A stretch of 64,000 bases of DNA from Isurus oxyrinchus (GCA_026770705.1 JANJGN010000017.1:86614001-86678000), one strand, 5' to 3'. Shown: positions 6,403-33,740, numbered from the stretch's first letter. The notes: generated by a model from the sequence alone, not told the origin. Program-made: numbers and translations.

Positions 6403-6438
<36 letters not shown>

Positions 6439-6476
6439 CCCCTCTGTCGAAGAACTTACACAAACCTAACATTTAC

Positions 6477-6670
6477 ATGTGCCATTCCTTGCTCCGGCTA
6501 TGCTGGAGTTGGAGTTGTTCAGTGCAGCAGAGATCGAGGAAATATTTCTCCTTCTTCAGCACGAAGACGAGTGAGACCCAACCATATATCACCCCCGTGA
6601 AGCCGAGGCACTCTAATATCCCTGTGGCAAAGCTCAAGTACCACTTTAATCTCTCAGCAAAATGATGCAT
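6477..6670 (-). CDS. slc43a3: SLC43A3-like A first coding exon
   Basis: ATG 6670, [48 protein letters not shown]; donor GTAAAT at 6476. Upstream acceptor ttgtttaag gives exon start 6727 and a 57-nt UTR part, the same length as in copy B. Confidence 0.9.
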
Positions 6671-7370
6671 TTCTCACTTCTCATTGAAAACTGTCTTCAA
6701 TATCTTGGCATCTTCTTCTTACTTTGCCTTAAACAAACAACGAAATCCTAATTGTAGCAAATCTTTCACAACGACAGGGCACACAAATAATGTTAGTGTG
6801 TTTACGAAGTGTATTTGTTTGTGCACCCTTGGAAATCCATCATCCACTTTGGGCAAAACAAGGCATCACAAAGAGCGATATTACAATGTTTGCTCCTTTG
6901 CTTTATACGAAGCTTGTTTTTTGTTTAGTTTCGGGCCTAAGATCATTGGGAAGAGCTCAACTGTTCTTCTTATAGAAGGGCCGATGGAGCCCTTCAGGCC
7001 AACTGATAAGGAAGATGCGGCTATATTTTGTTTAGCATTGGAAGGAAACATTTCCAAAGTGCAGCGCTGCCTCATTCCAGGCCATCTGACAGTGCATCGC
7101 TCTCTCTACCCTGAACAAACAAAAGTGTGTCACTCCTTGAGGCTAGATGATCAACCTTTGCTTTAACCTCTAAGCTCTGAGCTTCCCACAGTCCAAACCT
7201 GCCCTAATCAGTGCATTGCCCACTTGGCCATGGCCGCATAACAGTGTAGCACTCGCCCTGTGCTGCGTAGCCTACTATTCCACCACAGTTTTTATTGATC
7301 TTCAGACTGCGCTAAATTCTCTTGGTAGAACGCTTATGCACCGTTGCCTAGCCAAGCATTATAAGCTTAT

Positions 7371-7430
7371 CCACTCACCATGAGAATCTGCTGCACAAAA
7401 AATGTAGCCCTTCCGGTTTATTTAATCCCG
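7371..7430 (-). promoter_or_regulatory. Candidate promoter / non-coding first exon of paralog A
   Basis: Minus-strand ETS-type ACCGGAAG (7417-7410) about 30 nt upstream of a consensus donor G|GTGAGT (7378). The first coding exon has an upstream acceptor, so a non-coding exon is expected. Confidence 0.35.
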
Positions 7431-7881
7431 TTCCAATATCAGTGCAGCAATTGAACGAGGACATGCAACTGACCATCTGTTTGATTCTGCGGAATGTGAT
7501 GGAGAGAAAGTTAGAAGTTCGAGGCAAAGGCAGTCAAAGAGAAACGTAGAAGAGAAGGAGAGACAAGACAGACTTTTGTTGCAATGAGGCTGTAACCACA
7601 GCAGGAGGACCAAATATATTAAAGGTATTTCTTCTTCCCGATTTCCATTCACTGTTCTAATATACAATCGTGACAACAAATATGTGTACAGCAGAAGCTC
7701 ACAAATACCTAAGGAAAAATCTCCTCTCATATAGATTTACTAAGTGCGGTTAGATGAAATTTGACAATTTAATCAGAACACGTGGGGCAACAGCGCATGT
7801 TCTTCTTTCAATCCCCCCCACCACCACACCGCCCCCCCCCCCCCCGCCCCCACGTTATGTATTTTGATACCCGATAGGCAG

Positions 7882-8843
7882 GCATGTTGATAATGTGCAA
7901 ACTTGTTAATCTATATCCTGTCTTGACAAAAAAACTGTCATTCAATCCAACCAATGATAATGCTTTCAATCGGCAGCTTGGTGATCAAAGGTTTTTTGGC
8001 TGTGCTCCCCAAGCGGACTTTCTGGAATAACTTGCTCTACCATGATCAGCATGGATTCCAGCAGAGCCATTCGGCAACATAACTCTTCGGATCATCGGCC
8101 CAAATTTGAAAAGAAGAGTTGAATTCAAGAGGCAAAGTAAGAGCGATTTTACTCGACCAAGTTAAGCAATTGAATAGACAGCATTTGGTGAAGTGAGACA
8201 TAAAACCTTAATTTTTTTGGACGGAGGAAAGAAAGTGTCTAATTTTTGCACTGATGGTACCTAACACAAAGAACGATGGTTATGTCTAATGGAGGCTCAT
8301 CATATTTTCCCAGCACGTCGCCTCAGGAGTTCCTCAACTTCAGCAGGCCAAACCATCTACAGTTGCTCGATCAACGATCTTCAGACAACCTAAGGTTTGA
8401 AGTGAGGATGTTCACTGAAATTAAGTAATCTGTACCATTCACACGTCAGAAAATGAAGCACTTTGTGCTGGTAGGTGGCAACATCTGAGAGGCATAAATG
8501 TTTCTGCTGAAAGATAAATCATCGTAATTAAATGGCGCTCAGTCTGAAACACTCCATGTGCCACGATTGAGGTTAATTCCACACCAATCGGCATGCACCA
8601 TGTGAAAGATAAACTGCAGCAATTCGCCAAGGCTCCACCGATAGCACCTCGCACAGCCAGCATGTTGATAATGTGCAAAATTGTTAATCTATACCCTGTC
8701 TTGACAAAAAAACTGTCATTCAATCCAACCAATTACCGCTCAATGATAATGCTTTCAATCGGCAGCTTGGTGATCAAAGGTTTTTTGGCTGTGCTCCCCA
8801 AGCGGACTTTCTGGAATAACTTGCTCTACCATGATCAGCATGG
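7882..8843 (+). repeat. Near-identical direct repeat, 7882-8054 and 8660-8843
   Basis: gcatgttgataatgtgcaaa...catgatcagcatgg occurs twice, with about 2-3 differences plus an 11-nt indel (taccgctcaat). Confidence 0.95.
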
Positions 8844-9310
8844 TCGAGGTTTATATAATGGAAATACCTTGGGATGTCAAGCAGAGATTATTAGATTATG
8901 TTCATTTTGGGGATGATCCCGACTGGCGTCACCGTGATGTCAATGTTATTACCACGTATCAGCATTGGCCTGAATGTTGCTCAGGTCTTGTTTTCTCAAA
9001 AAAATGTATATATTATACGTTACTCCGCAGCAAATTGGCCTGAACTCCGTGAAATCATCTTGCTGCTTCGCAGTTATGATATATTTCACCTCTCTTTCAC
9101 GATCAACTTTTGGTCTGCTCTGCTCCACCCCTATTCGTTTCTCACTTTTTCTGCCCTTCCCTCTCTGGCATGTACTCTCTTGGCATCTTCAAAAAGATAA
9201 TCTTGTGTATCATAACGGCTCTTATTTTCAACTCTCCCTCGACACTTCCCTCTCTCAACTTCCCTCTTTCAAGTTCCCTCTCCCTCCATTGCTCTCTTCT
9301 TCCTTCATGT

Positions 9311-9319
9311 ATTTCTTTT

Positions 9320-9375
<56 letters not shown>

Positions 9376-9396
9376 TCCTCATTTCTTCCTTTCTTC
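9311..9396 (+). repeat. (TTTC)n microsatellite
   Basis: Direct reading. Confidence 0.95.
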
Positions 9397-10719
9397 CACG
9401 CAGAGAAGCTACTTTCCATATCTGGGAATGTTTCCGAGCAGCTGGCCAGTGTCCTGCTTCCTCCCTCTCGCAATTATTTTGTCTACTACTGTACGAATCT
9501 GCAAATACGTGTGTTTTTGCTTTTGTAGCCCACAACTCCCTCTTACAGTCAGCCAGCACCTTTTTACTTCACCGGGACCGACATCAAAAGTGAGAGGGTA
9601 TACTTGGCAGAAAAAAATAAAATAACATGCTGTGTATCGCCTTTGTGGAAAAGGGAAAGATGAGGGCGCACCCTATGCTGAGAAGTGTTTTTCCAATTCT
9701 GAGGCGGAGATTGAAACTCGAGGCCATCGTTATCAGATAGTCAGTAGTAAATCCAATCGAGAATACAGGTGAAAAGTCTTCAGGCAGAGAAGTGAGAAAG
9801 CGCAGATGCTTGCCCCAGGGACTGGTTGAAATTTGAAGACATTTGAAATGAAGGTGCCCAAACAAATGAGCTGGAAATGAAAGAGAAGACATTTTGGTGG
9901 CTTGAGGTTGAGAAGTGTAGGAGGAAAATCGTGAGGTAAAAAATGGTGGTTTTGACCTATTGATCGAAGGACCTTTTTTATGTAATGTAAATATGTTGCA
10001 GGTCACTAATCCATTTATTCATGGAACGCCCGAAATTGGTCATCAGCGTGTCCAATGAAAGCCTCTGGTGGTTCGTTAATTTAAACTGGTTATCTAATTC
10101 TTCAAATATTTCAGAGCAACTTTGAGTTAGAACCGTTGGCCAGAAATTTGGCAGCCAATAATTTATGTGGCTATAAAAGCAACACCGAGCCTGGAAATTC
10201 TGCAGTGAATACAGACCCTCCTGAACCGTAACGCCCATCCCATAATCTACATGGCAGAGGTCCGGAGTATGATGCAATAACCTGAACTTTTCATATAGAT
10301 GCAGTGCAAACGCCACACAAGATGTTCCACACCAAAAAAACAACGCAGCCTGCCTTCCTCCACCACCCATTCACCGTGAATGGAGTCTGTAGTATCAATA
10401 TGGTAAGCCTGCCTCGGAAACACCATAAACACCCGAATACCAACCACCGAGAATAAAAGGGTCAGTGGTTATTAGCGGACACAGCCAGCTTAAGATTCCC
10501 CTTCAACTCAAATACCTCGGGAAATAGTCATTGCTTCCTTCATTTGTGGTGGGGCAAGGTCTGGAAGCTCTTACTCTCTCCCGAAGAACACTGTGTACGT
10601 ACCAATTCGGGTGGGCGACATCGTTAAGGAAGACGGCGGCTATCAGCAATGGCTAATCATGTCTGGCTTCTCCAGAGAAACTCTGCGAGACAAAAGTAAT
10701 TCCTGCTTCTTTATTGACA

Positions 10720-13300
10720 ACTTTTCCTATTCTCTCTCTATCTATCTATCTCTCTCTCTCGGTCTCTCTCTCTCTCTACCACTCTTTCTATCTCTCTATA
10801 TCTCTTTCTCTCTCTATTTCTATCTCTCTGTCCATCTATCTATCTATCTCCATATTCTCTGATTTCTCCTACTCTCTTCGTTTCTATCCCTTTATCCATT
10901 CTTCTCTATCTCCGGGTAGAATCATAAATATGTAGTAAAAGAAGGAGTTGAAAGTCTCGATTTCATTCCACTTACCAGCTCCTCTGATAGATTTGTGTAA
11001 CTTATGGCATTTCAAAAGCATGTCTATCTATGAGTGTGCTTTGTTTTTTTCACTTGGGGAATGTATGTACTTCTGCGATCATTCCATACATGGATTCACA
11101 GACACGGACCACATTCTGGGTAAAGAAATTTATTTAAAAGACAAATTAATTGATCAGCCAGTTATATTCTCTATGTTCTTCGTTACTTGTTTCTCATCGA
11201 AGGAAATAAACCAATCCTATATAATCTATCAACGGGCCTTCTTAATGTTATACGCTTCCAATTATCATCTCCACAGCCATCTCTGTTCTAAAGAAAACAG
11301 CGTTAGCCTGTCCAAAGATCCCTTATAGAATATTTCTCCATTTCTGGCATCTGTATAAATATCCTACGAGCCCTGTATCGTGTGATCATCTCCTTCCAGT
11401 AATGTGATGAACTGAACTATCAGCCGTTTCCAGCTGTCATCTCACTCGTGTTTTAAACAGTTTTAACGAAACCCCCCGCTTCTTATCTGCTATAGTTCGG
11501 ATAAAAAAAATAAGTTATCAGTTTTTCCTCTTAAACCCCATACATGCTACTTCAGGTATTCGCGGACATAAAAATCCAGAATCCTTTTGCTACTCGACAG
11601 TTTTCATTTTTGTCCACATTATGAGGTCCCTGTCGCTTGTGTTGAATTGTTCTCTGTTTGCTCAGTAGTTATTTTTTTGTTTTTGGCCTCAAATGCTTGT
11701 TAACAAGCAATAGCACTGAAATAGAAACCTGCCAGTTAAGGCCCTTTCCAGGTCAGGTGTGAAGCCGCCAAGATGTCTCATGCTGCGATTCTTTCCGTTT
11801 GTTTTGAAATTTGTCAATTAGCTACCGAGAACCTGTTGCAACAAGAACCAAGGACTATACAGATAGCATCCAGTGTTCCTTCCGAGCGAGCTACACCCAG
11901 CTTCGACTAATTTCCCCATTCCATCTAAATTATTCATACTGTCGCTGCATTCCTGTTCATCTTTATCTCACTTTTTCAGGTGTTATCCATCTATGTGTTT
12001 ATTTACGATTCTTGCTTTCCGAGTTTATTTCTCTCTCATTCTCCCCCCGCCCACAAACACCGCCCCACCCCCCGCCTCTTTCTCTGTCTCTCCCTCTTTC
12101 TCTCTCTCTCTCTCTATTTAGCAATGTATCTATCGGTCACACTCTATCTATCTCTCTCACTCCCTCTCATTTTCTCTATTTACCTCCTTATATGTATCCC
12201 GCATCCCCGTCTTTCTCCTCCTCTCTTCCTCTCGTCATCCGTCTTTAACCTTCCCTCCCCCTCTCTGACCCCTCACTCCTTATACCTCCTGCTCTCTCCC
12301 CTGCGTAAAGTCATCAAAAATTACATCACTGAAGGGGCTGACATCCCGATGTCTCATACATAAAGTATATTTCAATTTACCAGCTCTGGGTAAGCAGTCT
12401 AGTAAATTAAGACATTTCAAGTCACACTTGTCAAGCGCTGTTTTTTTTTTGTTGTAACATTTATTTGGGAAGAAATTCAAGCTCCAAAAACATTTCAGAG
12501 AGTGATAGCCAAACACAGCTCACTTTCCAGGCACATGCAATTATGCTCTTACCATCTCAATCCTACAAGCAATCATCTCCAACGATTTCCCCGGATACTT
12601 ATCTATGATCTAAGAAAAGTAAATTCTCCCTTTCTATTCATCCAGGGAGCAGCCGTCAACCAACCGGTTTTGAACAAACCTCCATGTTTCTTTTCCGCTC
12701 TACTTTAATAAAGGAAGATATACAATTTGTCTCCCTAACCTCCATACCTGTTTGTTCTTCTCTCTTCATCGCGCACGGACATAGAAATTCAGAATAAATT
12801 TCCCCCTCTGTATGTTTATTACATCGTGCAACATATACGCTCAACGAATGCTATCCCGCTGTGTTGAAGAGTTCACAGATTGTTCAGTTGTTAATCATTG
12901 CTGTTGAGCACTAATTCTTGTTTATCAAATGATCAGCATTGAAACAATAACAAAAACAGAATTACCTGGAAAAACTCAGCAGGTCTGGCAGCATCGGCGG
13001 AGAAGAAAAGAGTTGACGTTTCGAGTCCTCATGACCCTTCGACAGAACAGAGCATTGAAACAATTACCTGACAGGCAAGTCCCTTTATAGCGCAGATGTG
13101 AAACTATTGACACAACTATGCAGCGGTTGGCTGGGACTAGTTCAGTTTTTTTTTTCAAAAGTAACGTGTTCTTTTACCAGCTCTATATTTGATGATTCAA
13201 CAATTCAACGTCAATTTTTTTTTGTGGCTTTGTTTGTGTGTCTGAAAACAACCCACGTTGAAAGTGTGCTTAACAAAAATGTTTGATTATTCAATCTAAC
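10720..13300 (-). repeat. Two inverted copies of the same array unit
   Basis: Reverse complements of 11680-11800 (aaacggaaagaatcgcagc..ggcttcacacctgacctgg) and 13050-13150 (cagccaaccgctgcatagttgtgtcaatagtttcacatc) match the core; CR1 tails and CT-rich spacers are mirrored. Confidence 0.8.
12949..13050 (-). mobile_element. Short Penelope terminal fragment with 14-bp TSD
   Basis: Identical by eye to ~30045-30144; flanked by agcattgaaacaat at 12935-12948 and 13051-13064. Confidence 0.9.
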
Positions 13301-13527
13301 CAAAAATACGTCAAGTATTCACAAAGTGAGCAGCTCTTGCTACTGATGCTAGTATATAATTTTAACTTGGAAGCTAGGCATTGGAATTTCGCCACACATT
13401 ACATAAGTTATATGGTGAATGATTTAAGCTGGAGCTCTGCAATCACATATAGATCTGCCTCACTGAGCACTTAGACTTCTAATAAATCGAGTAACTTTTC
13501 TCTGTCTCGGTCTATTTCTCTCTTTAT

Positions 13528-13559
<32 letters not shown>

Positions 13560-13999
13560 CACTCTCTCTCTCTCTCTCTTGGTCTGTCTCACTCTACAAA
13601 TTAGTTTACCTCTTCTATTCATCCTCTTCGATTAATCAGTTGTCAAAGGTTGGATTTAGAAAAATAGAACGATTTTTGCAAGGCTAGCGAAATTCAGACC
13701 ATCATGTTCGTGCTGGCACAAATGAATAATTCTGTCCAATCACACTTTCAATTTCTTGGCAATAATGGGTGTAATAATGATCAGCAGGGGAGATGAGGAT
13801 AATATCAATGATAATAAAATAAGTATAATCATAATCATCATCCTTATTATTGTAATTGTTTTTAATTATTGTCATTCTTAGTGATATCAATAAATATAAT
13901 AGCAACAATAAGGCGATAAAATAGGAGAAGTTGATGAAGAAGAAGGGAATTAGAAGAGATCTTGAAGCCGCTGCCTGAAAAGACGATGTAATGAGGTTC

Positions 14000-14710
14000 A
14001 ATATAATTACAGAGTAACAGATGAAAAAATAACAATCCAGCTCTATATGTGCTTATGTTCTCCATAAGAACATTCTATATAAGCCTCATGGAGTTCTATT
14101 CTTAGCCGATCGCTAGAGCACTGGAACAGGGAAGTTATGCTACAAAGATGCAATTGTAATAACAAAAATAACTCGTTGGGCCACAAACACAGCAATGCGC
14201 TCATTACTGGGTAAATAGGAACGTGGTCAAATGAGAAAGGATAGAGGAGGCAGACAAATGATGTTGCCAAAGATGGAGAATGTTAGCTATGAGGAAGGGT
14301 TTTATACGTGTGGGCAGTTTTCTTAGCAACGAAGGAGGCTATATGAAGATTTAATTGAGCCCTTTCAAATTATGATGAAATTATGGGTGGCTAGATCGAT
14401 AGATACGAATGACCTATTTCTCATCGCAACAGCGTCCTTAAAGAACAGGCAGCGACTTAAAACACTAAATGATATAATAATTCAAACTTATTTGAGGATA
14501 AATGTTTTCACTAAGAGTGTGGCGAGTAATGATAATGCTTTTCTTGAAGGAGTAGTCGAGGTATATGATTTCAGTGCCTTTAAAGCATTGTTGGGCGCTT
14601 CAAGTGTTTACAACTGCTGGTTATAGGGCAAGGGTTCGAGAACTAAAGGATGTTGTGCACCTCTCTTTCGACATGTATGAAAGGATAAAGCCAGGGTCTT
14701 TCTCTGTAGG
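14000..14710 (+). mobile_element. CR1 3' fragment forming the spacer of the inverted duplication
   Basis: gttagctatgaggaagg..gaaggaggctatatgaagatttaattgag corresponds to decayed YEERL..RRLRGDLIE. Confidence 0.65.
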
Positions 14711-14719
14711 CTGCAGCTG

Positions 14720-15085
14720 CTGTTGTTAGTTATCATTATTAGTAGTAGTAGTGTTTTATTAATATTATTATTAGAATTAGTATTATTAGTAGAATTATTA
14801 TTATTAGTGGTAGTAGTATTAGTAGTTGTAATGCTAGCATTGTATTATTCATTATTGCTAATATAAGTACATATAATAGCAATAAAAATAACATCGCCAA
14901 TAATGGTAATAATAATATATTAATGATCACAGTGAAAATGAAGATTGTTAAAATGTTTGTTATTAATATAATAATAATAGCATTTTCATTGTTATTTGTA
15001 TTATTCATAACATTAATATCATCATTAACATGTTATTTCATTGTTATTATATTTCTTGACATTAGCAATGATGACGATTAATATT
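14720..15085 (+). repeat. (TAT/TAG/TAA)n low-complexity tract (also 13770-13920, 29160-29260)
   Basis: Direct reading. Confidence 0.9.
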
Positions 15086-16214
15086 CTCCTGATCTCCTCT
15101 GTTGCTCGATATTACTCTCATTATTGCCAAGTAATTGAGGGGGTTATTAGACAAAATTGCTCACTTCTCCCAGAACGAAAAACATGGTCTGAATAACTCC
15201 AGCTGTGCCATAAAGCTTTCTTTGTTTCTGCATCCAATCATAGACCACTGGGTAAACTGAAGCAGAGTGAATGGGAGAGATTAATATACATGTGGAATCA
15301 GAGAAAGAGACAGAGAAAGGGAAAGAGAGAGAGGTATATAATTCTAATCATGTTACTCGAACTATGTGAAGTGAAATTTCACCACCTAGAAATTCTCCAT
15401 TGCTTATCGGTATCTTCTCAGCCTCAAGTATTAAGTCTGGAAACCATCAATTTAATCCGAGAATATGATCTTCTGGATTATTTGATTTTATACTCAGGAT
15501 CGGACGAGGGACCTTTGGAGTAAAAAGAAAAGTCGTCCAGTGACCGCTGATTTACCCCTGGCTCGATTCGGCGATTATTATTTTTTCCCTAAACGTACGT
15601 TCAACTTTGGCTGATTTGGCAACTTTGGCAAACGAATTGACTAGAAAAACTGTTCACGAACAATAACAATCAGGAAATACGTTTCAATCGGTGGGAAAAA
15701 AAACACTTCTTCCCGCTTTGTCTTTTTAAAACTTGAGCCAGCTAGATTCTTAACGGTGAATGTATGCGGGAGAGAAGGAATAAATTGGAGGGCCACAAAA
15801 ACTTAATGGATCATCACTAGAGTAAGATACAGAAAAAAGAGAGAGAGAGGCAGGCAGAGATACAGAGAGTGAGTGGGAGAGAGAGAAAGAGAGAGAGAAA
15901 GAGGAGGTAGACAGACAGAGGGAGAGACAGAGCGACAGAGAGGGGTAAGAGAAAGAGACAGAGAAGTATCAGGAAACTGGTATGATAACACAGATTGGAA
16001 GAGAGACAAGGTTCGACAAAAAATACAGAGGCATGGCGAATAAATTATCAAGGATGGGGGAAATGCTGGAATCGCTGTGTTTCCAATGGGAACAATGGGT
16101 ACTATGAATTCAACACTTTTTCTTTGTTCTAAAGCGGATCTTCCACAGCCAACCACGATAATGTTATGCATGTCATTCCACCGATAAAAGGACTTGGTTG
16201 ACAGTTTTTTTGTT

Positions 16215-16320
16215 GCTCTGTTGAAGGGTTACGAGGACTCGAAACGTCAACTGTGCTCTTCTCCGCTGATGCTGCCAGAACTGCAGAGTTTTTCCAGGTA
16301 TTTCTGTTTCTGTTTTTGAT
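16215..16320 (+). mobile_element. Short Penelope terminal fragment, different subfamily or older copy
   Basis: ctgttgaagggttacgaggactcgaaacgtcaac...tttttccaggtatttctg; about 10 differences from the other two copies. Confidence 0.85.
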
Positions 16321-18729
16321 TTTTTTTTTCAATGCTGTTGTGTCTTAACAAGCATTTGGGCTCAAATTCAGTGATTAATATCTGGACACTCCGCGAAGTA
16401 CTGAACATTACAGGTGGCCTATTAAATTTCGGGAAGTAAAATCTGCAGAGGAGTAAAGGATGTGACCGTATTGCGTGCCCCCGACCCCAGAAGGCAGCAG
16501 GACAAGCAGGTGTGTCGTTCAAGAAGATACATCGGAAATCTGGTTTCTTCCATAAGTCACAGCAGGTTAAAACTGGGAAGTTTTGCTACACCTGTTTAAA
16601 ACACTATGTGATTACATTTGGAGAACTGCGTACATTTCTGTTCAGTATATTACTGGAAGGACATGAATACATATCTGGGTATTGAAGAACTTTGCGAAGA
16701 TGTCACGAACGGATAAATCTAGCTATGAACAAATGTTTACATAGGCTGGTTCTGTTTTCTTTCGAGCTGAGGTGGCTAAGGAGATGCTCGACAGCGATGG
16801 ATAAAATAATGAGGATTAATGACAGAGTGACCAGGGAGGATTCCACCCACGTAGGCACCGCATCCCCCCACCACCACCCCACCCCACCCCACCCTGCTTA
16901 GATAAGAGATAGATAACCGTGAAATCGATTAAGATAATTTATTGACGGATTAAGGCATTAAGGTGTTTTGAAAATATTTTTTTTTACCCTTAAAGTGACC
17001 TATCTTTGGATATAACTGCGTGGAACTGTTGTTGATTTAGAAATTATCGCCAAATTTAAGATAAAAGTAAACAGAGATTGAAAAAAAAATATGGAGTGAA
17101 ATGTTGATAATTCACAGGTTTTTAGAGCCGAATTTGATCACTGGGATTAGGCTGCATTACAATTCGTGATGTCACATCCTTCTGTGCTCTAAATGTGTAT
17201 TATATTAGGAGGGAGAGAAGGCAGGAGGAATTAGGAGGGAGAGGGCTAAGATAGAGAATGAAAGAAAGAGAGGGCTGTGGTAGCGAGGACAGAAGAAATA
17301 AACATTAGGAAATTGAGAGAAGAATAGGGAGAGATAGGTGGACAGAAATTTTGGGAGATTGAGATAGGGAGAGAGAGAAAGCGAGAGAGAGGGGTGGAGG
17401 TGGCGAGAGAGATTTGGAAGCATATGCGTACATGGAGAGCGGAAGAGGGAATGTCAGATAGAGGGAGAGAGAGAAAGATATACCAGAGTTAAACGGCAGT
17501 ACAAGTAACTTTCCAGAGCAGACAACATATTTGAACCTGTTTGCTTTTAGTACAGTGGGAAAATGGGTTTTATTATGTTTATGTAAAAGTCAGGCTCTCA
17601 CTGATTAATCATCACACTAAAAGATGGAAGTATTCCACAGCAATTCGCTGTAAAATAAAGTCAGTGTTTTCACGTCAAGACAGAGAATGGAGCATGCCTA
17701 TCAAGTTTCTGTCTTAATGCTGCTGTTTCTTGATAAGGATTTTAGTGCAAACCCAATGATTATTAACTGAACATTCTGCTAAACACAAAGAAAACAATTC
17801 GGCGTACTGATAAGTTGCACAATATAAAAAGCTTAGGGGGAGCAAATAATTTTAGGTTTTATGTCCACAGTCCCGGAAGGCTGTAGGGCAAGCAGTTATT
17901 GGGGGAGGAAGGGGGGGGGGGGGCGAGGGGGGGGGGGATTAAGAGGAGATATCGGATACCTTCCTTTATTATCTAATGTACAAAATATAAAAACAAAAAG
18001 AGTTTGTTAAAATTATTGAAAATGTGAGTAGGATCACCGCAGGAGAGTTGCCAAATTATTGGAAGTATATGAACGCAATACAAAGGGTATACTCGAGGCT
18101 TACGAAGATGTCACAAATCAAGAAATGTAGTCACGAGGGATGTTTCGTGAGGTTTGATTTGTTTTCTTTAGAACAGAGATAGCTGAGGAGCTGTTTCTCA
18201 GAGGTGTATTAAATTCTGAGGGATCCCTGAGGGAGTTGACAGAATGCTTTTATTTCTCTTCGATGAGATACAGATAATAGGGGCAGTTGATAAAGTTAAT
18301 TGGATAAAGTATGAAAGAGATTTGAATGACCATTTTTAAATCCTGAAATCGGTCTCTGTCTGGATATGATTCCATGAATTGCTTATTAACATAGAAATTC
18401 TCGTCAGCTAAGAAGAAAACAGTGATTGACAGATATCCACTTGAAATGCCATAACTTACCGAATTACATACCAAGGGCTAATGAGTGGGATTAGTCTGCA
18501 TCGATCTTTCTGGATGCCATCTCGCTCTGTGCTGCCGATGTTTATGATTATATAATAGAGGTAAAGCAGGATCTCAGCAGGGACGGGGGTGAGCAGGAAA
18601 GAAAGTCACAGAGGAATGAAGAGGGGAAACGAGCAGGAGAAAGAGGAGAATACGGGACAAGAGTTAGAGATGGATAGACAGATAAATTGGTCAGTAGTTA
18701 CGTGGGTAGGTGAATAGGTCCTTAGGTAG

Positions 18730-18730
18730 G

Positions 18731-18795
<65 letters not shown>
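18730..18795 (+). repeat. (GATA)n microsatellite
   Basis: Direct reading. Confidence 0.97.
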
Positions 18796-21211
18796 TTATA
18801 GAGATATGGAAAGAGTGAGAGAGAGTGAGCGAAATACAGAGATGAAGGAAGAGATAGAGAGAGATGGAGGGAAAGAGGAAAAACTAAAATAGAGACGTAG
18901 AGCAGAAAGCTAAAAATGGGAAAGATTGGCAGAAATAGAATGACAAATCGCATTACATAGCAAGAATTGGTAGCTGACGCAATCGGTGTATTACTAGGAC
19001 AACGACCATTATTAATAATATTCTCCTCCATGCAACAACTGGTTATGGCTGCTGATATATTGTTTTTTTGTTTGTTTTGAACCGGAATAACGCACAGCCA
19101 ACAATTGCTTTCCGATGTCAGTGGTTTCACACATGAACTCTAAAGGAACTTGCCCAATAAGATTCTACTTCAATGCTGTTGCTGCTTTTAAAAAAAACAA
19201 TTTTGGCGCAAAGGCAATGATTAATGACAGAGCCATTAGTAAACTGTTCAGCGCAAGGGAAAGTATTTGGCGAACTAATACATAGTAAAATGTCTAAAAC
19301 CTGTGGAAGAGCCAAGGGATTCTGCAGGGTAAGCCTGCGAGCGAGGTCACATCTGGAGAACTACCTACTGTCCTGCTGACTACATTACTAGAAGGAAATA
19401 CACACAGTTTAGAAGGCAGATAGGGCATTTACGAAGATGCCACAAATGGAGACATGTGACTACGAGGAAAGTTTCAATAGGCTGAATTTGCTTTCCTAAG
19501 ATCACAGATGACTGAGGTGATATTTAACAGTGATGCAAACAATTATGAACGCCCCTAAAGGACTGGCCAGGGCTAATTTACTTCCCTTGGCTGAGAGATA
19601 AATAACCGGAAAATCGTTTTTGATAATTGGTTGAAGCGTTAAAGTGTTTTGATAATAAATGTTTCTACTCTGACAGTTGTCTATGGTTTGAAATCATTGT
19701 CTGATCTGGGTATCGATGTAGAAGTGCTCAGCAAATTAAAAAAAAACAAAGTTTTTTGAAAAAAGTGCACTTGAAGTCTTAAAATGCCTCATCCAACAGG
19801 ATTGTGTATCAAGAGCTCCGAATTGGGGCCAGGCTGCATTACACTTAGCAGAATTCGGCGCCTCCTGTAGCGTAATGTTTTTATCGTTTTATGAGGAAGA
19901 TAGGGCAGGAAGGATACGAAGAGAGAGAGGTGAGTGAGAGGTAAAGTAAGTGAGGGAATAGCAGTGCAAGGGATAAGAATAGGGTTAAAAGAACGAGGGA
20001 TGGAGAGACAAAGATAGAGAATGGGGCAGATATGAGGGAGAGTTGGAGAGAGGGTGAAAGACACTGTATATGTGTGTTTGTGCCTGAGTGGGTGTGTTCG
20101 TGTGTGTGTGTCTTTGTGTGTGTTTAAGGGAGGGAGAGAGAGAATTTCACAGAGGTAATGCTCCAGTGTGAAAAACTTGGCAATGTTGTGGTAAAGGCTG
20201 AATTCAGCGTATTTTAGTTCAGTGAGAACGAGGCACACTGTTAATAAATCAGTCTATTCACGGTACAACATGATCTCGTTCATGAATAAAGAGATATACA
20301 GAACAAACCGGAAATATTCACAGCCACCCGCTACACAGTTGTGACGCAGGTTTCACACCTGAGCTGGAGACGGGCTTGCCAGGAAGGTTTCCGTTTAAAT
20401 GCTGTCGTTTTTACAACAAACGCTTGGGCCCAAGATGGGTGATTCATAAGTGAACTAACTGAACATTGTTCAATACAGCGCAAAATCATTCAGCGATCAA
20501 ATATATTGCCAGCTATTTTAAAATATGTAAAAGCAAAGGGATTCTGGATTCTATGTCCGAAATCCCCGATATTGGCAGGTAAAGCAAGTATAGGAATTTA
20601 GAAGAGAAATCCGAGAACCATTCAGCACAAAGGAAACGATTGTCTGACCTAAACATTTGAAAGGTATGAAAAGCTGCAGTGGACTAAACGGATTTTGGAT
20701 TGTACGACCACTATCTCTGAGGTGGGATGGCAAGCAGGTATTAGGGTTAAGAAGACAAATCGAATATCCTCCTTAGTTACCTGAAGTACAACAAAAATTA
20801 AAAAGAAAGAGGTTTTGCTATTGTTTTAAAACAGGAGTGAGAACCCAGTAGGAGAAATGTGTACATTTGTACATGTGTACATGCACATGTACATGTGTAC
20901 ATGAAATGTTCCCTACATTACTGGATGGATATTAGGACGGTTTAGAAGGTAAAAAAAAATACCAAGATGTCATGCATGTTGAAATGTAGTTGTGAGAATT
21001 GTGTTGATAGGCTGGGGGTTTGCATTCTTTATAACAGAGATGACTGAGCACGTGTATATCAAAGATGTAGGAAAGTCTAAGGTCGTCTGATAAAGGAGAG
21101 AAGGGGTGAGAGTGGGCCATACAGGCGTAGGCAGGTAAATATGGAAAGGAAAAAAGAAAGCAAGAATCAATAAAAAAAGAGTTAGAAGGTGGAAGCTGGA
21201 GATAAATACTG

Positions 21212-21242
<31 letters not shown>

Positions 21243-22591
21243 CATTTATAAAGTTATGAACGTCCCTGACATAATGCAAAGGAACGATTTATCTCCCTCA
21301 AGCAAGACAGAAAATACCCTAAGAATCGATTAAGTCAATTGGTTGAAGCAGTTGGGTGGTATGAAGCTAAATGTTTTTCTTTCTATCCTGAATGTGATCT
21401 GCATCACACTCTCAGCAATGGTTGTAGGTGTTGAAGCACGCACGAATTTAAAAAAAAAGACAGTGATTGTCAGATATGCAAATAGTAATGCCATAACTTA
21501 CGGGATATTACTCTGAGAGCCGGTTAATGGGCATAGGCTGCTGTCAATTTCCGGAAGCCAGCTCGTCCTGTCCTCTAAATAGTGAGAATTTTATGAGAGT
21601 GATAATGCAGGAGCCATACGGTGAGAGAGAGAGAGAGAGAGAGAGAGGAGGCTAAGAGAGGAAAGAAAGGGGGGAGATTGTTGGGAAACGAGGAGGAGAG
21701 GTGCAGATGGAAAGATAAAGACAGGGGGAAGAGAGAGAGACAGAGAGACAGAGAGACAAAGGGGGAGAGAGGGAGAAAAGGGAACGAGAGAGAGAGAGAG
21801 AGAGAGAGGTGGTGGTGGGGTGGGGAGGGAGTGGTGTTGGGAGAGCAAGAAACTGACCTAGTGATATAGAACAAGAAAACTAAAACAAGAGAAAGATGGC
21901 CAGAAATGGAAGGACAGAGCAAATTAAATAGCAGGATTTGGCAAAGGATACTTCGAGAAAAAAACAGTCACAATTAATTATGCTCTCTCTCCATGTTACA
22001 ACTGGTTAAGGCTGATGATTTAAAACTGCTCTTTTTCTTTTAAAACGGACTAATTCAGAGCCAACAGCTGCATTATGCTGTCAGCGGTTTCACACATGAA
22101 CGGTGAAGGAACTTGCCTAGCATTTTTTTATTTCAACGCTTTTGCTGCTTTTTAAAAATAATCAATGATCGATGACAGAACTATTCAAGACAGGGTAAAA
22201 TATTGGGCAACCTAATAAATTGCACGATATAACAGAAAGCTTTTGATGAGCAATGAGATTCTGGATTATACGCCCGTCATTGCTGAAGGCAGCAGGACAA
22301 GCAGGTATGCTGGTTCAGCAGAGAAATCCATATTTTATTTCATTATTTAAAGTAGATCAGGTAAAAACAAGGAGCCTTTGTTAAAACTGTTGAAAACACG
22401 AGTGAGGTCATAGCTGGCAAAGTGCATGCTGTCCTGCTTACTAAATTGCTGGAAGGGAAGATACACAGATCAGAGGGCACATAAGACATTTACAAAGATT
22501 TCAGGAATGGAGAAATGCAATCACGAGGAGTGTTTCGATAGCCTGACTTTGTTTTATTTTGATCACGGATGGCTGAGGAGATTTTAAACAA

Positions 22592-22596
<5 letters not shown>

Positions 22597-22629
<33 letters not shown>
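22597..22629 (+). repeat. (TA)n microsatellite
   Basis: Direct reading. Confidence 0.97.
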
Positions 22630-22632
<3 letters not shown>

Positions 22633-25600
22633 GGCGCCTGACAGAGAAGACAGGAAGCAATTATTTCACTTAGATGAGATTGATAGCCAGGAAATTATTT
22701 AAGATAATTTGAAAATAAATGTTATCACTGTGAAGGTGATCTGTGTCCGAATATCTCTGCCTTGATTGCTTGTTCAGGTAGGAACTCTCGCTAATTAAAA
22801 ACAAATAATAGTGATTGACAGATATGTACTTATAATGCCATTACTTAAATGATTAGATACCAAGAGCTGGTAAATGCCATAAATTTTCATGACAATTTCT
22901 GGAGGAATATGGAGCGACAGTTGTGAGAGAGCAGAAAGGCAAACTAGGGATGAGGAGGTGAGCAGACAATGAGAAAGAGCAGGGAAAAGAGAGAGAGTTC
23001 TATATAGATAAATTGATGGATAGATGTAGAGAGGGGGCGAGAGAGATCGAGGTAGGTGGAGAGGGATAAATATGGAAAGAAATAAATAAAGCAAGAAGCA
23101 GTAATAAAGAGTTAGAAGGTGGAAACCAGCGAGAAGGAAAGAGAGAGAGGGAGAGAGGGAGAGAGGGGGAGAGAAAGGGCGGAGTGTCTGGTGGGGTTGA
23201 TTTACAGAGACAGCGAATAACTTGACAGGATTGGGGCAAATGGTGGGATCTCCGTCTATCGAATTCGACGTGAAAATGGGTATAATTAATAACGCACTGT
23301 GTGCGTGAGAACACAGGTCCTTGCTGTATAATTAACACATAAAAAGACGGAAGTATTCATCGCTACCCGCTGTATAATTATGTCAGTGTTTTCACACCGG
23401 AGTGACTTGACTGGCAAGTTTCTATGTCAACGCAATTATCCTATAACATGTATTTGGGGTCAGACGCAATGATTCCTAACTGAACAAGCCATGATAAAAA
23501 TGAACACAATGGAAACTATTCGGCGGCCTGAAAAATTACAAGATATGAAAAGCTGCAGAGGAGCAAATGGATTCTGGATTGTACGTGCGTGAACCTTGAA
23601 GGCAGCATGGGCAAGCAGCTATGGGGTTTCAGAAGAAAAATCGTATATATTCCTTTATTATCTAAAGTGTAACAGATTAAATCAGGGAGGCTTTGTTAAA
23701 ACAGTTTAAACACGAGTGAGATCACTGATGGAAAGCTACCTGCAGTCCAGTTGACTACATTGGCAGAGGGATATGCATACATTATTGAGGGTAGAGAGGA
23801 GCTGTACGTGGATACCAGGAAAAGAGACATGAAGCCATGAGGTAGGTTTTGATCGGATGGCGTCGTTCTCCTTATTACAGAATTGGCTGAGGGAATGTTT
23901 AACAGATGTATAAAAGTACGAAAGTCCCTGATAGAGTGTAGAGTAAGATTAATTTCCCTTATGTGAGAAAGAAATATTATAAAAGTCGATTAAGTTAATT
24001 GATTAAATAATTAAGGTGATATGAAAAAAATGTTCTTCTTTTCACACTGAATGTGATCTGTGTCTGGATTGCACGCTCCGCAATGATTGTAAGTCTTGAA
24101 AATCGCATCAATGTATCAATAAACCGTGACTGACATATATGCAAATTGAAATGCCATAACTTATGGGATTTTATACCGAGGGCTGGCAAGTGGGAGTAGG
24201 CTATCTGGCAATTTAAAAATGCTGGGTCCTTCGCTGTTCTACATATTTAGGATTTTATGAGGAAGATAATGCAGGAGCGAAACGGGGAAACAGCGAGGGG
24301 AGGTAAGAGAGGAAAGAAGAGAGGGCGAGAGATGGGAAAACGAGGGTGAGAGGTACAGATAGATAGATAAAGATAAGGGGAAGAGACAAAGAGACAGAGC
24401 ACGAGGGAGAGAAAATTAGTGACAGAGAGGGAGAGAGAGGGAGAGAGAGGCAGATACATATAGATATAACTCAAGTGAGCAAATATCTTTAAGAAATACA
24501 TATAATGAGATAGCCAGAAATTGAGGAATAAGATATGAAAAAAAAGCGACAGTGCGAATAACTTGGCAGGCATTATGGGCATGCTGGAAGGTTTGCTTTT
24601 CCAGTTCTGTGAGAGAAATGGAAACTGATTGTAAAGCACTCTGTTCATGGAGTGATAAAGGCTTGCTAATTATCTGACATATTTGCTTTCAAAATCTGCC
24701 GAAGTAGTCACGGCAAAACGCTGCCTCATGGTCAATGGTTCTATACCTGAGCTATGACGGGAGAGTCCTGGAAACAGAAAATCGACTTCAAATCTGTTTT
24801 TTTTTTTGTCGAGCATTTTGGCGCAGCCTCAATCTACAATAACTGAATAATCCTAGAACTAATCAACACAACGGAAACCAGCTGGTGGCTGAATGCATTG
24901 CACAATATTTTTTTCAATGTAGTGGCGTAATAGGATTCTGCACGCACTCCCTGAAGGCAGCAGGGCAAGCAGGGCTGGAGGTTAAGAATTCAAATCGGTC
25001 ATCTCCCATTAGTATCTGGAGTGTAGCAGATCAAAGAAGAAGGGGACACTTTGCGAAGCATGTTCTTAAAACTAGTGAGATCAGAGTTGGATTATTGTGT
25101 ACACTTCTTTTCATCACATTGCTGAAAGGATAGGATCACAATTTCTAGGGGACAGCGGAAAATTCAGTGGTTGCCAGGAATTGAGAAATGTGGTGACATG
25201 TCTGGCTAGGCTGACTCCGTTTTCCTTCGAAAAAGCATAGTTGAGGAGCTTTCAAACAGATTCGGATACAATTATGATGGAGTGGCAGGTATGATCCATT
25301 TCCCTTTGAATGTGAGATTAATACCTTGGAAAACTGATTAAGGTAATTGGTAGAACGATTAAGGGGCTATAAATCAAATCTTCACCCTGAATGTTTCGAT
25401 TGTCTGGATATCCCTGTCTGCAATAATTTAATGGGTAGAAACTCAACAAATTAAGCAAAGAAAAAAAGACAGATATGCACTTGAAATGTCATTACTTACA
25501 GCATTCTCTACGAATAGAGCTGGAAAGTGGGGTGGAACTGCATTACGCTCTCTGCATGCCAGTTCCTTCTGCGTTTATAATATTTAGGGCATTGTGAGCG

Positions 25601-27485
25601 GGGTAAAGCTTGAAGGGTAAGGAGGCAGATAGTTAAATGGAGGGGCGGTGACTGAAGAAGCGGGCAATATAGGTCAAAGCGATCAAAGGTGGCAAAAAGG
25701 AAGGGCTAATGAGAGAGAAGTAGAAAGAAAGGAGAAGAAAGCAAGAAAGAAAGCAGGGCAGTTGAGAGAGGAGCGTGATGTTACAATCGGAAGTGGGTGA
25801 ATGGGGACACAGTCAAATTGCGGTAAGGGGTGAGGAGTGATCAAGAGAGAGTGGGAGAGAGCGACGGAGAGAGTGAGAGAATGAGAAAGAGACACAAATG
25901 AAGAGGGAGAGAGAGATTGAGAGAGGGGGTGGGTGGAAGGGAGGGAGTGGCACAGCAAAAAGAAAGTGTGACAAGAAAGGAGCAGGGCCAACGATTTTTC
26001 TGCAGAATATCTCCAGAAAATATAGAAAATACTGATCATCGCTTTTAGCTACAGAGTCCATCTGATGTGTGATGAAACGCAGTGCTCTTGGGGAAATTGT
26101 GGGAGTTCTAGTATTTTACCCCAGCGTCAAAAAAGGACATACTGATTAGTTTGCAATTGATTATGCTGGGTGCCTTGGAGGGGAGCTTTGCTGTGTTGGT
26201 GTCGCCATCTGTATGCTTATCATTTCAATCTAGTTAGTATATTTTCAGAATAGAAAAGTGTTTCAGAAGCAGGCTTGACATATTCTTTCAGAACAACTTT
26301 GAGATTGTAAATATTGTAGTTACCGTGAGCCAATGGCACAGGGGCAAAATCATTAATGTTATGGATAAGATGCTGGTCAGGCTGGATGCATTGTACAGGT
26401 TGGTGTGCAACATCTTGCACATCATTGGAGCTACACTTGTGTGGCAAGTGGATGTTATTACATAACACTCCAGACTTGAACATTGCAGGTGATGGAACGG
26501 AACTTAGGAGTCAGGAGGGGCGTTATTCACTTCAGAATTTCCAGGCTTGATGCAACTTCTATGTCCACAAAATTTATTGCCTGCCCTAGTTCCTTGTAAA
26601 TGGTTCTAACTCAAAGGTACTCTGATAGATTGGACAAAACTTAATTCCCTGTGTAAATTAATGAGTCATAAAAGGCTTCCATCAGCCACACTGAAGGCAA
26701 TGAGAGGACCACTTCAGTGAACTCAATTGTTCCGAAGTTTTACAAAGTTACAATGCATTCATATGAAAGAAACAGGTCATTCGACCATCAGGACAATGCA
26801 ACTGCGTTTGTACCACATAAGCCTCCTTCCACTATTCTCAATCTCAAACAATCAACTTATATTTCTAATCTTTTCCACCTCATGCGTTCATCCAAATCCT
26901 TTTTATATGTCAACAACTCTCAAGACTCCTTGTGGCCACGACTTGTACATTTCTCCTTCCATCAGCTTGAAGAACATTATTCTGATTTCCTGATTGGATT
27001 TATTACTGTCTACCTCATGATGATGGCCTCGAGTTACAACTTTCTCCAAAAAAAATGGAAAACAATGGCTCCATGTCAAATCTGCCCTCAGCCTTCTCTT
27101 TTTCCACAGAAAATATCCGTTTTCGTATTTTTCATATGTATTTTCTTCCTGCTAAGCATTACTTCCCAGATTTTGATGGTGGACATGTTTAAGGAAAAAA
27201 CTTTTTCTTTCAGGCAGCACACATGCGGCCCGGCATGACTGCCTGATAGAGGCAGGTTGAACAAAGTATTATATTGCAGTTTGTAGAATCCAGCATTGAA
27301 CAAATTGGGTGCTGGGTTTCTTACAGTGAAGTCATACTTAGATTTCAGAAAAGTGCTTTAATATCTGCAACACGTATTCTGGTGTCCAGAGGTGATGAAA
27401 AAAATTGATAGATTTGTGTTCATTTCAGCCAAAGGAATAGGACGTTTCCAAGATAACGACGATAATCACCCATGAGTCATTGAAA

Positions 27486-27675
27486 ATGCAACCTTTTGCC
27501 CAGACCTGCAAGTGGTATTTGTCCTTTGCCACTGGGATATCCGAGTGTCTTGGCTTCACGGGTGTGATATATGGCTGCGCCTCACTGGTCTTCATGCTGA
27601 AGAATGAGGGATATTTCCTCGACTTCTGTGTTCAGCTGAACAACTCCAGTGGCACAGCAGCGAGAAATGATACCT
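27486..27675 (+). CDS. slc43a3: SLC43A3-like B coding exon 1
   Basis: [63 protein letters not shown]; 190 nt, phase 1, donor gtaatt; acceptor catttcag at 27428. Confidence 0.9.
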
Positions 27676-28378
27676 GTAATTGTGTAGTTGGTTGCTGTTT
27701 GTGGGTTTGGTGTCATGGCGAGACGGGGTGGGCAGAAGAGGAGCATAGAGAAATAGACAGCGAGAGAGAGTGTTACAAAAGAAGGGAAGGGTGGGAGAGG
27801 GAGCTGGGGAGAGGTGCGAAAGGTAGAGGGGAAGGGTAAGACAAAAAGTCCGGGACAGACAACAAAGGGCCCATCAAAATTGACCAGAGGTACAAAGGGA
27901 AGTGGACAGTGAGGTACACTGTCAGAAAGAGGGGGATGAATAGAGAGGGATGAACCCGGGATAAAGAAAGGGTGGGCGTAGGGGGTAGAGATCATGAGAA
28001 ATGGGCAACGGATAGAGGAAGAGATAGAAGATACAAAGAACGAGAGGGGATGTGATTGGGAGGGCAGAAATGAATGAGTGGGTGCAGGAGAATTGAAGTT
28101 GGAGTGAAGGAAATATTGGAAAAAGGTGAGATTCAGACAGTTTTGTGGATGGTGGAGGGATGAGAGGAAGATGAAGAGAAGGGGGAGGGAGGATTGAGAC
28201 ACACAGCTTTAGTGGGGAGACGATGGAGGAAAAAAGGAGTGATGCTATTTTTTTCCACTTTCAAACCTAAAGTTGCAACTTATTTCATTGGTTTTCATAC
28301 GTGTTTGGATATCTTGAGATTGTGAAATATGTCTCCATCACTCTCTTTCTTTCTGAGCCTCTTATGTTTCTTTCTCAG

Positions 28379-28511
28379 TTGGTTGTGATCTGCAGGATGA
28401 ACGTTTCACTCTCGTCTTCACCATCGCTTCTTTCACCTTCAACTTCCTGTCCTTCCTCTGTGGTGTCCTGATTGACTACCTGGGCACCATGGCATCCCGA
28501 ACCTTGGCCGT
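28379..28511 (+). CDS. slc43a3: SLC43A3-like B coding exon 2
   Basis: tttctcag|TT GGT TGT GAT CTG CAG GAT GAA...GCC GT|gtgagt; 133 nt, same size as the copy A exon. Confidence 0.92.
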
Positions 28512-29608
28512 GTGAGTCCTCGAGCTGTTCCTGTTTATAGTCGCATATAGATCACTGCCTGTAGGGTAACAGACAGTGAGTGGAGATAAAGGTCCAGGAG
28601 GAGTTTCAGGAAAATTCCCAAGAGAAAGTTGGTGAATGAGGAGGTATAGGAAGGAGGCAAATGGGGCAATATTTTTGGGTAATGAGGGATAGGGCAGTGG
28701 AATGAAGATGGATGGGAATCCAAAAGTAGAAGGATCTGGAGGGTGAGCGGCAGGGCAGGAGGAGCGGAAGTGGGAGAGATGGATGCAGAGCATTGCCAGC
28801 AATTGAGGCTAGAAAAATGGAGAAGTAAAAGAAGGATTATGCGAGATAGAGGAGGGTCCATACAGAGGAAGGTGTATGGAGTGTGTCAGAAGGAAAGTGA
28901 CCGGGAGGAGGAGTCAAGTATCAACATGAAGTGAGGGACATCTAGAAATATGCTATGTGAAGAAGGAAGAGGTTTAAAAAGACGTCTGGAACCAAGTTTC
29001 ATATGGAGATTCATCATGCAGTAGACAATTCTTCAGATAATCATCCATGCATTAACAAGAAATGCATGATATTAAAGAGCACAGCAGTGAAGAAGGGTCT
29101 TGTCTCTGAATGGAGTTAAACTTGAACATAGCCCCCTGAATGGTCTCTGTATTGCCTGTGTTATTATTATTACCATTATTATTATTGTTATTAGTATTAA
29201 CATCCTCAAATTCATCATTATCATAATATTTATTAGCTTATTATTATTCTTATTATTATTGTGCATTGTCTTTCTTTTTATGTAGATTACGTAAAATTCT
29301 GAGAAGGAAGTATAATTATGAAATTTAAGATCGATTTTCAAAACTTGTCAATGCAGTGCTTTAAACATGGTCTACAACGATCATGTTAATCGGAAGACCG
29401 TATCCAATATCTTGCGTTTGCAACAGTATCTGATTTTGGGATCATGCTGTACTGACGTTACCTGCTGCGGATCATACATTACAACAACAAATATGCTTAA
29501 AAATATATTGGCTGTGAAAATGTTTTGGATGAGCGAAAGCCGTGAATTTCACTGCATAAATGCAAGTTCATTCAGCCTTTTCACACTCGCTCTCTACTTC
29601 TGTTGCAG

Positions 29609-29684
29609 CTTCCGCGTCGCTGTTGTTCCCAGCACTCAGTCTTATGCAATTGGGGGAATTCTCCTGTTCATTACAAACATCCAG
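29609..29684 (+). pseudogene. slc43a3: SLC43A3-like B exon 4 equivalent, damaged
   Basis: tgttgcag| then ASASLLFPALSL / AIGGILLFITNIQ in two different frames (76 nt, one base short at CTT AT GCA); followed by ttaatc instead of GT. Confidence 0.85.
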
Positions 29685-30005
29685 TTAATCTAACATGCCG
29701 TGGGGTGGAGCAAAAATAGTGTCCTGAGTTCTCGCTGCACGCTCAACAGATGGTCAATCGGAGTGCACTAATGGGGGACAGTAGTGATGGGGGGGGGGGG
29801 GGGTGGGGGGTGCGCTGCCAGAGTTTCTGGACTTTGTCTGAGATGTTTAACCGTTGCCCCAGTGCACTCTAAGGTGGAGATGAAATTTGCACCATATGAT
29901 GAGTCAAGTGACCAAATTACAAACTCAATGAATATCAGTAAATCACGTTATTTGTTCAGTGATCACTTCCATCTTTGTGGAACTTTACAGTGCACAGATT
30001 GACTA

Positions 30006-33040: not shown

Positions 33041-33060
33041 CTGTCTGATATCATTCCTAG

Positions 33061-33666: not shown

Positions 33667-33670
33667 TACA

Positions 33671-33704
<34 letters not shown>

Positions 33705-33705
33705 T

Positions 33706-33737: not shown

Positions 33738-33740
<3 letters not shown>

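What the first reader, a model, noticed from the sequence alone, without database searches (positions are those of the whole stretch)
10720..26000. Unnamed array of nine ~1.4-kb units with a conserved non-TE core between the divergent genes (2 inverted + 7 direct)
Seen: each unit is a ~450-bp core, a ~600-bp decayed CR1 3' end and a 300-400-bp GA-rich spacer. Core anchors lie at ~16134, 17623, 19081, 20307, 22044, 23346 and 24698 (plus) and ~11795 and ~13140 (minus). Units are strongly diverged yet keep short blocks: ETS-like CGGAA(G/A)T in several copies, GGTTTCACAC, GATTCTGGATT and GGCAAGCAGGT. Each unit points toward the paralog in its own arm. Inference: this could be an amplified enhancer or alternative-promoter module for the SLC43A3 pair, or a neutral old macrosatellite.
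Basis: partly seen in the sequence, partly recalled or inferred. Interest (0 to 1): 0.7.

Follow-up and report, generated by a model that had tools for sequence, protein, structure and literature searches.

The report
Decayed CR1 tandem array between transporters
Between two back-to-back nucleobase-transporter genes of a shark lie nine old, worn copies of a 1.4-kb stretch that is mostly retrotransposon; its supposedly conserved core has changed as fast as the rest, so it is likely a harmless relic of old local duplications rather than an amplified switch.

Summary
The array is real: nine units, 2 inverted and 7 direct, mean spacing about 1.43 kb, plus a partial tenth. It lies between two divergent SLC43A3-like paralogs. 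Each unit is a GA tract, about 300 bp with no detected homolog elsewhere, and about 650 bp of one 5'-truncated CR1. The 'conserved non-TE core' is not supported. The remaining core evolves at the CR1 rate (relative rates 1.004 vs 0.999). In 500 neutral simulations none of eight conservation statistics of the core was exceptional (P 0.10-0.79). Indel rates are equal, and units are about as diverged as fourfold sites of the two genes. A related organism lacks one 'block' in unit 5 (42-bp deletion, 4 of 4 runs). Best reading: one CR1-containing segment was amplified by unequal crossover, likely seeded by an upstream CR1 tail plus GA tract, at about the time of the inverted gene duplication. It then stopped homogenising and decayed. 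Both genes likely have an unlocated non-coding first exon, so a promoter in one unit is not excluded; the RNA data were uninformative.

The parts
10938..11889 (-). Unit M1: core 11888-11618, then CR1 3' part; followed by a TC (GA on minus) tract at about 10727-10915
12320..13227 (-). Unit M2: core 13227-12823, interrupted by a Penelope-like end; CR1 part with an internal deletion of about 200 bp; TC tract at about 12045-12300
12949..13048 (+). 100-bp end of a Penelope-like element, 100% identical to young dispersed copies, flanked by a 14-bp target duplication
13555..13809 (-). Centre block of the minus arm: likely the 3' tail of a separate CR1 copy leading into a GA tract; mirror of 15077-15336
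14082..14624 (+). Unrelated old CR1 3' fragment near the axis of the inverted duplication
15077..15336 (+). Centre block of the plus arm (CR1 tail plus GA tract), 72-73% identical to its mirror
16082..17194 (+). Unit U1: core 16082-16435 with a Penelope-like end at 16217-16322 (88.8% to the M2 copy); CR1 part from about 16447
17548..18538 (+). Unit U2: core 17551-17823
18987..19875 (+). Unit U3: core 18988-19291; deletion of about 120 bp at the start of the CR1 part; core is sister to the U5 core
20215..21580 (+). Unit U4, a composite: full core 20215-20514 and the start of CR1, then a partial second core (20608-20653) with its CR1 part; GA insert at about 21095-21240
21951..22905 (+). Unit U5: core 21950-22228; 22258-22299 is deleted in the related organism A
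23262..24244 (+). Unit U6: core 23264-23544; CR1 nodes 909-1566
24602..25580 (+). Unit U7: core 24603-24906; followed by a GA-rich tract to about 25960
27429..27675 (+). First coding exon of the plus-strand SLC43A3-like gene (ATG at 27486), preceded by an acceptor-like pyrimidine tract and AG; later exons to 42269 located
6510..6727 (-). First coding exon of the minus-strand SLC43A3-like paralog (ATG at 6670, boundaries approximate); the gene runs on about 15 kb beyond the window's left end

Best explanation
This is an old local tandem array of one CR1-containing segment whose units have all decayed at the same rate, and it likely has no function as an array. Shown: each unit is a GA tract, about 300 bp of unassigned DNA and the last 650 bp or so of a CR1; the nine CR1 parts form one group apart from dispersed CR1 copies; the tree is star-like; core and CR1 part change at the same rate. 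Inferred mechanism: a 5'-truncated CR1 with a GA tract came to lie downstream of an older CR1 tail with a GA tract (the centre block). The two tail-plus-GA direct repeats mispaired, and unequal crossover duplicated the segment between them. More rounds gave ten or more units, around the time the gene and its upstream DNA were duplicated in inverted orientation. Exchange then ceased, apart from some later events among inner units (U3/U5 cores, U4/U6 CR1 parts, the composite U4), and the copies drifted apart.
For: Rates: partition speeds 1.004 (core) vs 0.999 (CR1); equal tree lengths 2.57; rate variation among core sites adds only 0.6 lnL. Identity 59.6% over 208 core columns vs 61.0% over 693 CR1 columns, difference CI -0.047 to +0.022; the whole core with its 5' part is lower, 56.3%. 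500 neutral simulations: invariant columns 22 observed vs 21.4; best 10-column window 0.756 vs 0.757; all eight statistics P 0.10-0.79. Indels 22 vs 82 events, p=0.82. Independent yardstick: fourfold sites of the paralogs differ at 47 of 132 (JC 0.48), seven non-coding arm pairs 0.33-0.45, unit CR1 pairs 0.42 with the same aligner. The nine CR1 parts group at 90/78 support, moderate. Outer units have longer branches (0.32-0.38) than U5 and U6, as unequal crossover would give. Cores tolerate insertions (U1, M2) and deletions. Organism A lacks 22258-22299 in 4 of 4 runs. The centre block has 15 weak hits (E 0.0009-0.39), 14 of them at the 3' end of CR1 copies.
Against: Comparing paralogous units cannot see a function kept by only one unit per arm, or a few scattered binding sites. 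Both genes, and at least three other paralogs, have an acceptor-like AG about 55 nt before the ATG, so a non-coding first exon and promoter likely lie upstream, and the array fills about 15 of the 20.7 kb between the genes. The best-kept window of the whole unit is the CR1-derived AGG(A/G)CAAGCA just before a donor-like CAG|GT (P=0.04, uncorrected among 16 statistics), and the CR1 part has slightly more invariant columns than simulated (102 vs 85, P=0.03). The U5 core region differs from organism A at 5 of 418 sites vs 13 of 584 in its CR1 part (p=0.33). The seeding role of the centre block rests on weak hits, and its order relative to the inversion is unresolved: the tree does not pair M2 with U1.
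Confidence: 0.76

Rival explanations
1. The ancestral unit held the gene's promoter and non-coding first exon, ending at a CR1-derived donor; one or a few units per arm still work and the rest are dead copies.
For: Upstream non-coding exons are implied by the conserved acceptor. The core is among the few arm-shared segments without a repeat match. The majority sequence at the block scores as a good donor (8.5, with a recalled weight matrix), and donor-like sites are present in U1, U3, U4 (first part), U5 and M2.
Against: Donor retention matches neutral decay (P 0.10-0.33 for 5 of 10; 0.37-0.65 for 3 of 8). The GT is lost in U2, U6 and U7, and the site is weak in M1. No minus-arm/plus-arm pair of cores stands out (53-58%). 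Donor-like sites in the arm are as frequent as in local shuffles (41 vs 35.5 +/- 6). CpG observed/expected of the array (0.58) is within the range of its 315-kb surroundings (0.35-0.67).
Confidence: 0.14
2. The array is an amplified enhancer module: all cores carry selected binding sites (ETS-like and others) that raise or tune expression of the pair.
For: Cores are local and upstream of both genes; a CpG at the anchor is present in 5 of 9 aligned units in one column pair; lag-1 clustering of conserved columns is P=0.10.
Against: No rate difference and no excess of short conserved words; the ETS-like word is exact at the anchor in only 2 of 9 units; three CpG columns in the CR1 part are also kept in 5 of 9.
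Confidence: 0.06
3. The unit is a dispersed composite retroelement (a SINE or non-autonomous CR1 with its own head), or the core is simply more upstream CR1 ORF2.
For: The unit ends in a CR1 3' end, as CR1-dependent elements do (recalled). A 300-bp fragment of an ancient, unsampled repeat at this divergence could escape my searches; a 1-Mb library left even known CR1 parts unmatched.
Against: The core profile scores no CR1 or Tx1 locus (best E 6.7), while an equally old copy of CR1 nodes 553-892 is found at E 7.6e-24. Genome-wide searches with three cores hit only the array. Two 20-mer patterns gave 14 vs 19 and 48 vs 19 matches against reversed controls, and none of the 41 outside loci examined extended beyond the word. 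No tRNA or Rfam match.
Confidence: 0.04

Closest known systems
Chicken HinfI repeat and the cetacean common satellite (LINE-derived tandem repeats; passages of the review PMC9659126)
   Same: The monomer contains the 3' UTR and part of ORF2 of a CR1 (HinfI) or the 3' part of a LINE (cetaceans) together with other DNA, repeated head to tail.
   Different: Those are described as satellite DNAs. This one has 9-10 copies at one genic locus, units only 56-61% alike, split into two orientations by an inverted gene duplication.
'First steps' model of Wong and Choo 2004: tandem repeats born by unequal crossover between dispersed TE copies (passage of PMC6947457)
   Same: A CR1 tail plus GA tract lies upstream of the first unit in both arms and each unit ends the same way, which is the layout the model needs.
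   Different: The array stopped at about ten copies and never homogenised, so it looks like an arrested early stage.
Human macrosatellites such as D4Z4 and DXZ4 (recalled; not read here)
   Same: Kilobase units, confined to one locus.
   Different: Those have near-identical, CpG-rich units and variable copy number; here GC is about 40% and units are deeply diverged.
Variable first-exon clusters such as protocadherin and UGT1A (recalled; not read here)
   Same: Tandem units upstream of constant exons, oriented towards them.
   Different: No coding exon, no conserved promoter element and no conserved donor in the units; no transcript evidence.

Membership tests
LINE-derived tandem repeat (HinfI type) | Monomer includes part of CR1 ORF2 and its 3' UTR | tested here: met
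   CR1 profile: 8 of 9 units at E <= 1.2e-13, M2 weak; direct alignment
LINE-derived tandem repeat (HinfI type) | Copies arose by tandem duplication of one insertion, not by separate insertions | tested here: met
   Shared upstream core and truncation zone; the nine CR1 parts group together at 90/78
Satellite or macrosatellite DNA | Units homogenised to high identity | tested here: not met
   56-61% identity, star tree with branches of about 0.3
Satellite or macrosatellite DNA | High or variable copy number | tested here: inconclusive
   9 full units plus 1 partial in this assembly; variation between individuals was not measurable
Variable first-exon or tandem promoter cluster | A promoter element conserved across units | tested here: not met
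   No core statistic above neutral simulation
Variable first-exon or tandem promoter cluster | A splice donor kept in each unit | tested here: not met
   GT lost in U2, U6 and U7; retention at neutral level
Variable first-exon or tandem promoter cluster | Transcripts splice from units to the constant exons | not testable with these tools
   No informative RNA run was available (see Tried and rejected)
Dispersed SINE or non-autonomous CR1 | Many dispersed copies of head plus tail | tested here: not met
   these searches miss very old copies
Dispersed SINE or non-autonomous CR1 | tRNA- or other RNA-derived head | tested here: not met
   No Rfam or ARAGORN hit in the window; low power at 40% divergence

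The most novel reading that the evidence does not exclude
The unit was the gene's promoter plus a non-coding first exon whose splice donor was recruited from a CR1. Tandem duplication made a bank of alternative first exons for a lineage-specific SLC43A3 pair, and several (for example U1, U5, M2) are still used in different tissues.
Probability: 0.1. Interest if true: 0.65.

Novelty: new member of a known kind. Interest (0 to 1): 0.22.

Why it matters
As read here it matters little: it is a well-preserved fossil of the first steps by which a LINE fragment becomes a tandem repeat, and a warning that short shared blocks among nine diverged copies arise without selection. The nine neutral paralogs are a small natural experiment in shark sequence decay, and two of them took a Penelope-like insertion at the same site. 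If units proved to be alternative first exons, it would be a transposon-built promoter bank for an expanded shark transporter family.

Tried and rejected
RNA: no RNA holder listed. Four of five runs guessed to be RNA were laid on 6400-26300; they covered neither the minus gene's first coding exon nor the unit cores, only repeats and simple tracts. This is no evidence either way. In the four DNA runs of organism A the bin 19011-19393 (U3) had no cover, but no contig joins across it, so a missing unit is not shown. My first idea, that the whole core is upstream CR1 ORF2, was rejected for the 5' 300 bp. The first reverse-transcriptase search returned two Tx1-like families (label from recall), not CR1. 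A second CR1 family profile matched nothing from 6000 to 28000. No core was found upstream of six other SLC43A3-like first exons (30 kb each for four, 20 kb and 1.9 kb for two; best E 0.7); these paralogs are distant (43-57% amino-acid identity in that exon), so power is low. Pairwise global identities of cores were dropped because shuffled controls reached 63%. No A>G vs T>C strand asymmetry in units. The centre block as a promoter candidate was weakened by its CR1-tail match. A genome-wide profile search with the core was not available, so very old dispersed relatives remain possible. Earlier scan findings: none. Literature: SLC43A3 + shark gave 2 papers, one read in passages with SLC43A3 only as a flanking gene in reptiles; chondrichthyan/tandem array/CR1/macrosatellite gave 3 listings, none on sharks' arrays by title; some searches were seen as listings only. 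No supplements were opened.

Full report
Setting. The window lies on a 119-Mb contig of a 4.98-Gb genome. It holds two divergently oriented genes whose closest database proteins are two Carcharodon carcharias SLC43A3-like proteins with consecutive accessions. Ten coding exons of the plus gene were located (27486-42269), and nine of them found a partner on the minus strand from 6670 to about 15 kb left of the window. In a tree of 31 proteins, chosen from the 120 listed, the two form a sister pair (100/99) apart from catshark and horn-shark copies, so the duplication is lineage-specific among the sampled species. Six more similar first exons lie on other contigs.

Observation. Self-comparison shows repeats at 62-76% identity across 10.7-26 kb, and the nine units align over their length. 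A profile of the core finds the nine units, a partial tenth core inside U4 and one hit at E 0.77 in 464 kb. All stated anchors fall inside these hits. GC skew changes sign near 14 kb, and mirror segments pair across that axis, so the units' orientation follows from the inverted duplication.

What the unit is made of. A search with the CR1 part of U6 gave dispersed copies, which led to a family of which 35 copies were used for a profile. It matches 8 of 9 units strongly and M2 weakly, starting at node 878-961 in most. Direct alignment shows that GATTCTGGATT and GGCAAGCAGGT correspond to CR1 ORF2 sequence. The 300 bp upstream do not match CR1 or Tx1-like loci, although an equally old copy of the adjoining CR1 region is easily found. 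Searches with three cores and two 20-mers found no relatives outside the array. These searches miss very old copies, so 'unassigned' is the right word, not 'non-TE'.

Is the core conserved? No, by every test run. Column identity is 59.6% from the anchor to the CR1 start, 56.3% for the whole core and 61.0% for the CR1 part. On one tree the two partitions have relative rates 1.004 and 0.999. In 500 simulations without rate variation, invariant columns, best windows and longest exact words of the core were all ordinary (P 0.10-0.79). The CR1 part showed mild excesses (P 0.03-0.04 for 3 of 8 statistics, uncorrected). Indel rates are equal. As a yardstick that does not assume the CR1 part is neutral, fourfold sites of the paralogs give JC 0.48 and other arm pairs 0.33-0.45, against 0.42 for unit CR1 pairs with the same aligner. 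CpG observed/expected is 0.58 in the array, within the range of a 315-kb domain around it.

A second genome. Four DNA runs of a coded organism A, about 2.5-3% different from the window, cover the 3' part of U1 and most of U2 and U4-U7. Eight contig pieces in the array differ at 162 of 6371 sites; the piece spanning U7 to the first coding exon differs at 102 of 3329. All four runs lack 22258-22299, which holds the GATTCTGGATT block of U5 but leaves the donor-like site. The U5 core region differs less than its CR1 part, not significantly (p=0.33).

History (inferred). The CR1 parts of the nine units group together, and the tree is nearly a star with branches near 0.3. Only U3/U5 (core, 100/99), U2/U6 (core, 87/87) and U4/U6 (CR1, 84/92) show later exchange. 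Upstream of the first unit in both arms is a block whose middle weakly matches the 3' tail of CR1 copies and which runs into a GA tract. Each unit ends the same way, so the ancestral arm likely had two tail-plus-GA direct repeats around the core. Unequal crossover between such repeats is the 'first steps' route described in PMC6947457 (passages). Amplification and the inverted gene duplication are of similar age within noise; their order is not resolved. Sharks mutate slowly (7e-10 per generation in PMC10587355, abstract only), so this divergence implies great age; I did not convert it to years.

What stays open. An acceptor-like site lies about 55 nt before the ATG in both genes and in three of four other paralogs shown (the fourth has a similar tract at a different distance), so a non-coding first exon likely exists upstream and was not located. 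The majority sequence at the GGCAAGCAGGT block scores as a donor, but retention is at the neutral level. Tests across paralogs cannot detect function in a single unit. I give 0.14 to a promoter in one or a few units and 0.06 to a selected enhancer array.

Comparison. The array works like a LINE-derived tandem repeat of the chicken HinfI type (PMC9659126, passages), but it is not a satellite or macrosatellite in the usual sense, because its units are few and not homogenised. It fails the sequence tests for a variable first-exon cluster. I found no description of this locus in the searches run; they cover only the open library.

Verdict. A real structure, a new member of a known kind, most likely neutral. 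Interest 0.22.

Noticed in passing
window 12949-13048 (M2) and 16217-16322 (U1): The same 100-bp end of a Penelope-like element sits at the same site, in the same orientation, in two units. The M2 copy is 100% identical to young dispersed copies and has a clean 14-bp target duplication; the U1 copy is 88.8% alike with a worn duplication, while the flanks are only about 60-70% alike. This points to two independent insertions at one site or to replacement by a young copy. The site resembles the element's end over about 10 bases.
   Followed up: partly
G000:C17, from 200 kb left of the window to about window coordinate 115,000: CpG observed/expected is 0.35-0.67 in 15-kb bins over about 315 kb, then drops abruptly to 0.19-0.32; possibly a germline-hypomethylated domain. 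It includes ORFs that look like SRCR domains and a GPCR fragment (labels from recall).
   Followed up: no
G000 contigs C2835, C35, C4591, C640, C1052, C18 (L134-L139): Six further SLC43A3-like first coding exons; the protein tree shows separate expansions of the family in several shark lineages. Several have minisatellite arrays upstream.
   Followed up: partly
window 7882-8054 and 8660-8843: A local duplication of about 180 bp at 93% identity upstream of the minus gene.
   Followed up: no
window 62459-62692 / 63212-63444 and 49932-50356 / 53922-54338: Two inverted pairs (78% and 65%); the first lies in CR1-like sequence.
   Followed up: no
window 27470-27481: A three-codon upstream ORF begins 16 bases before the main ATG of the plus gene.
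   Followed up: no
G000:C2:61840771-61878254 and similar groups on C3, C4, C11: Reverse-transcriptase matches with long open frames recur at about 7.3-kb spacing, suggesting tandem clusters of a young Tx1-like element.
   Followed up: no
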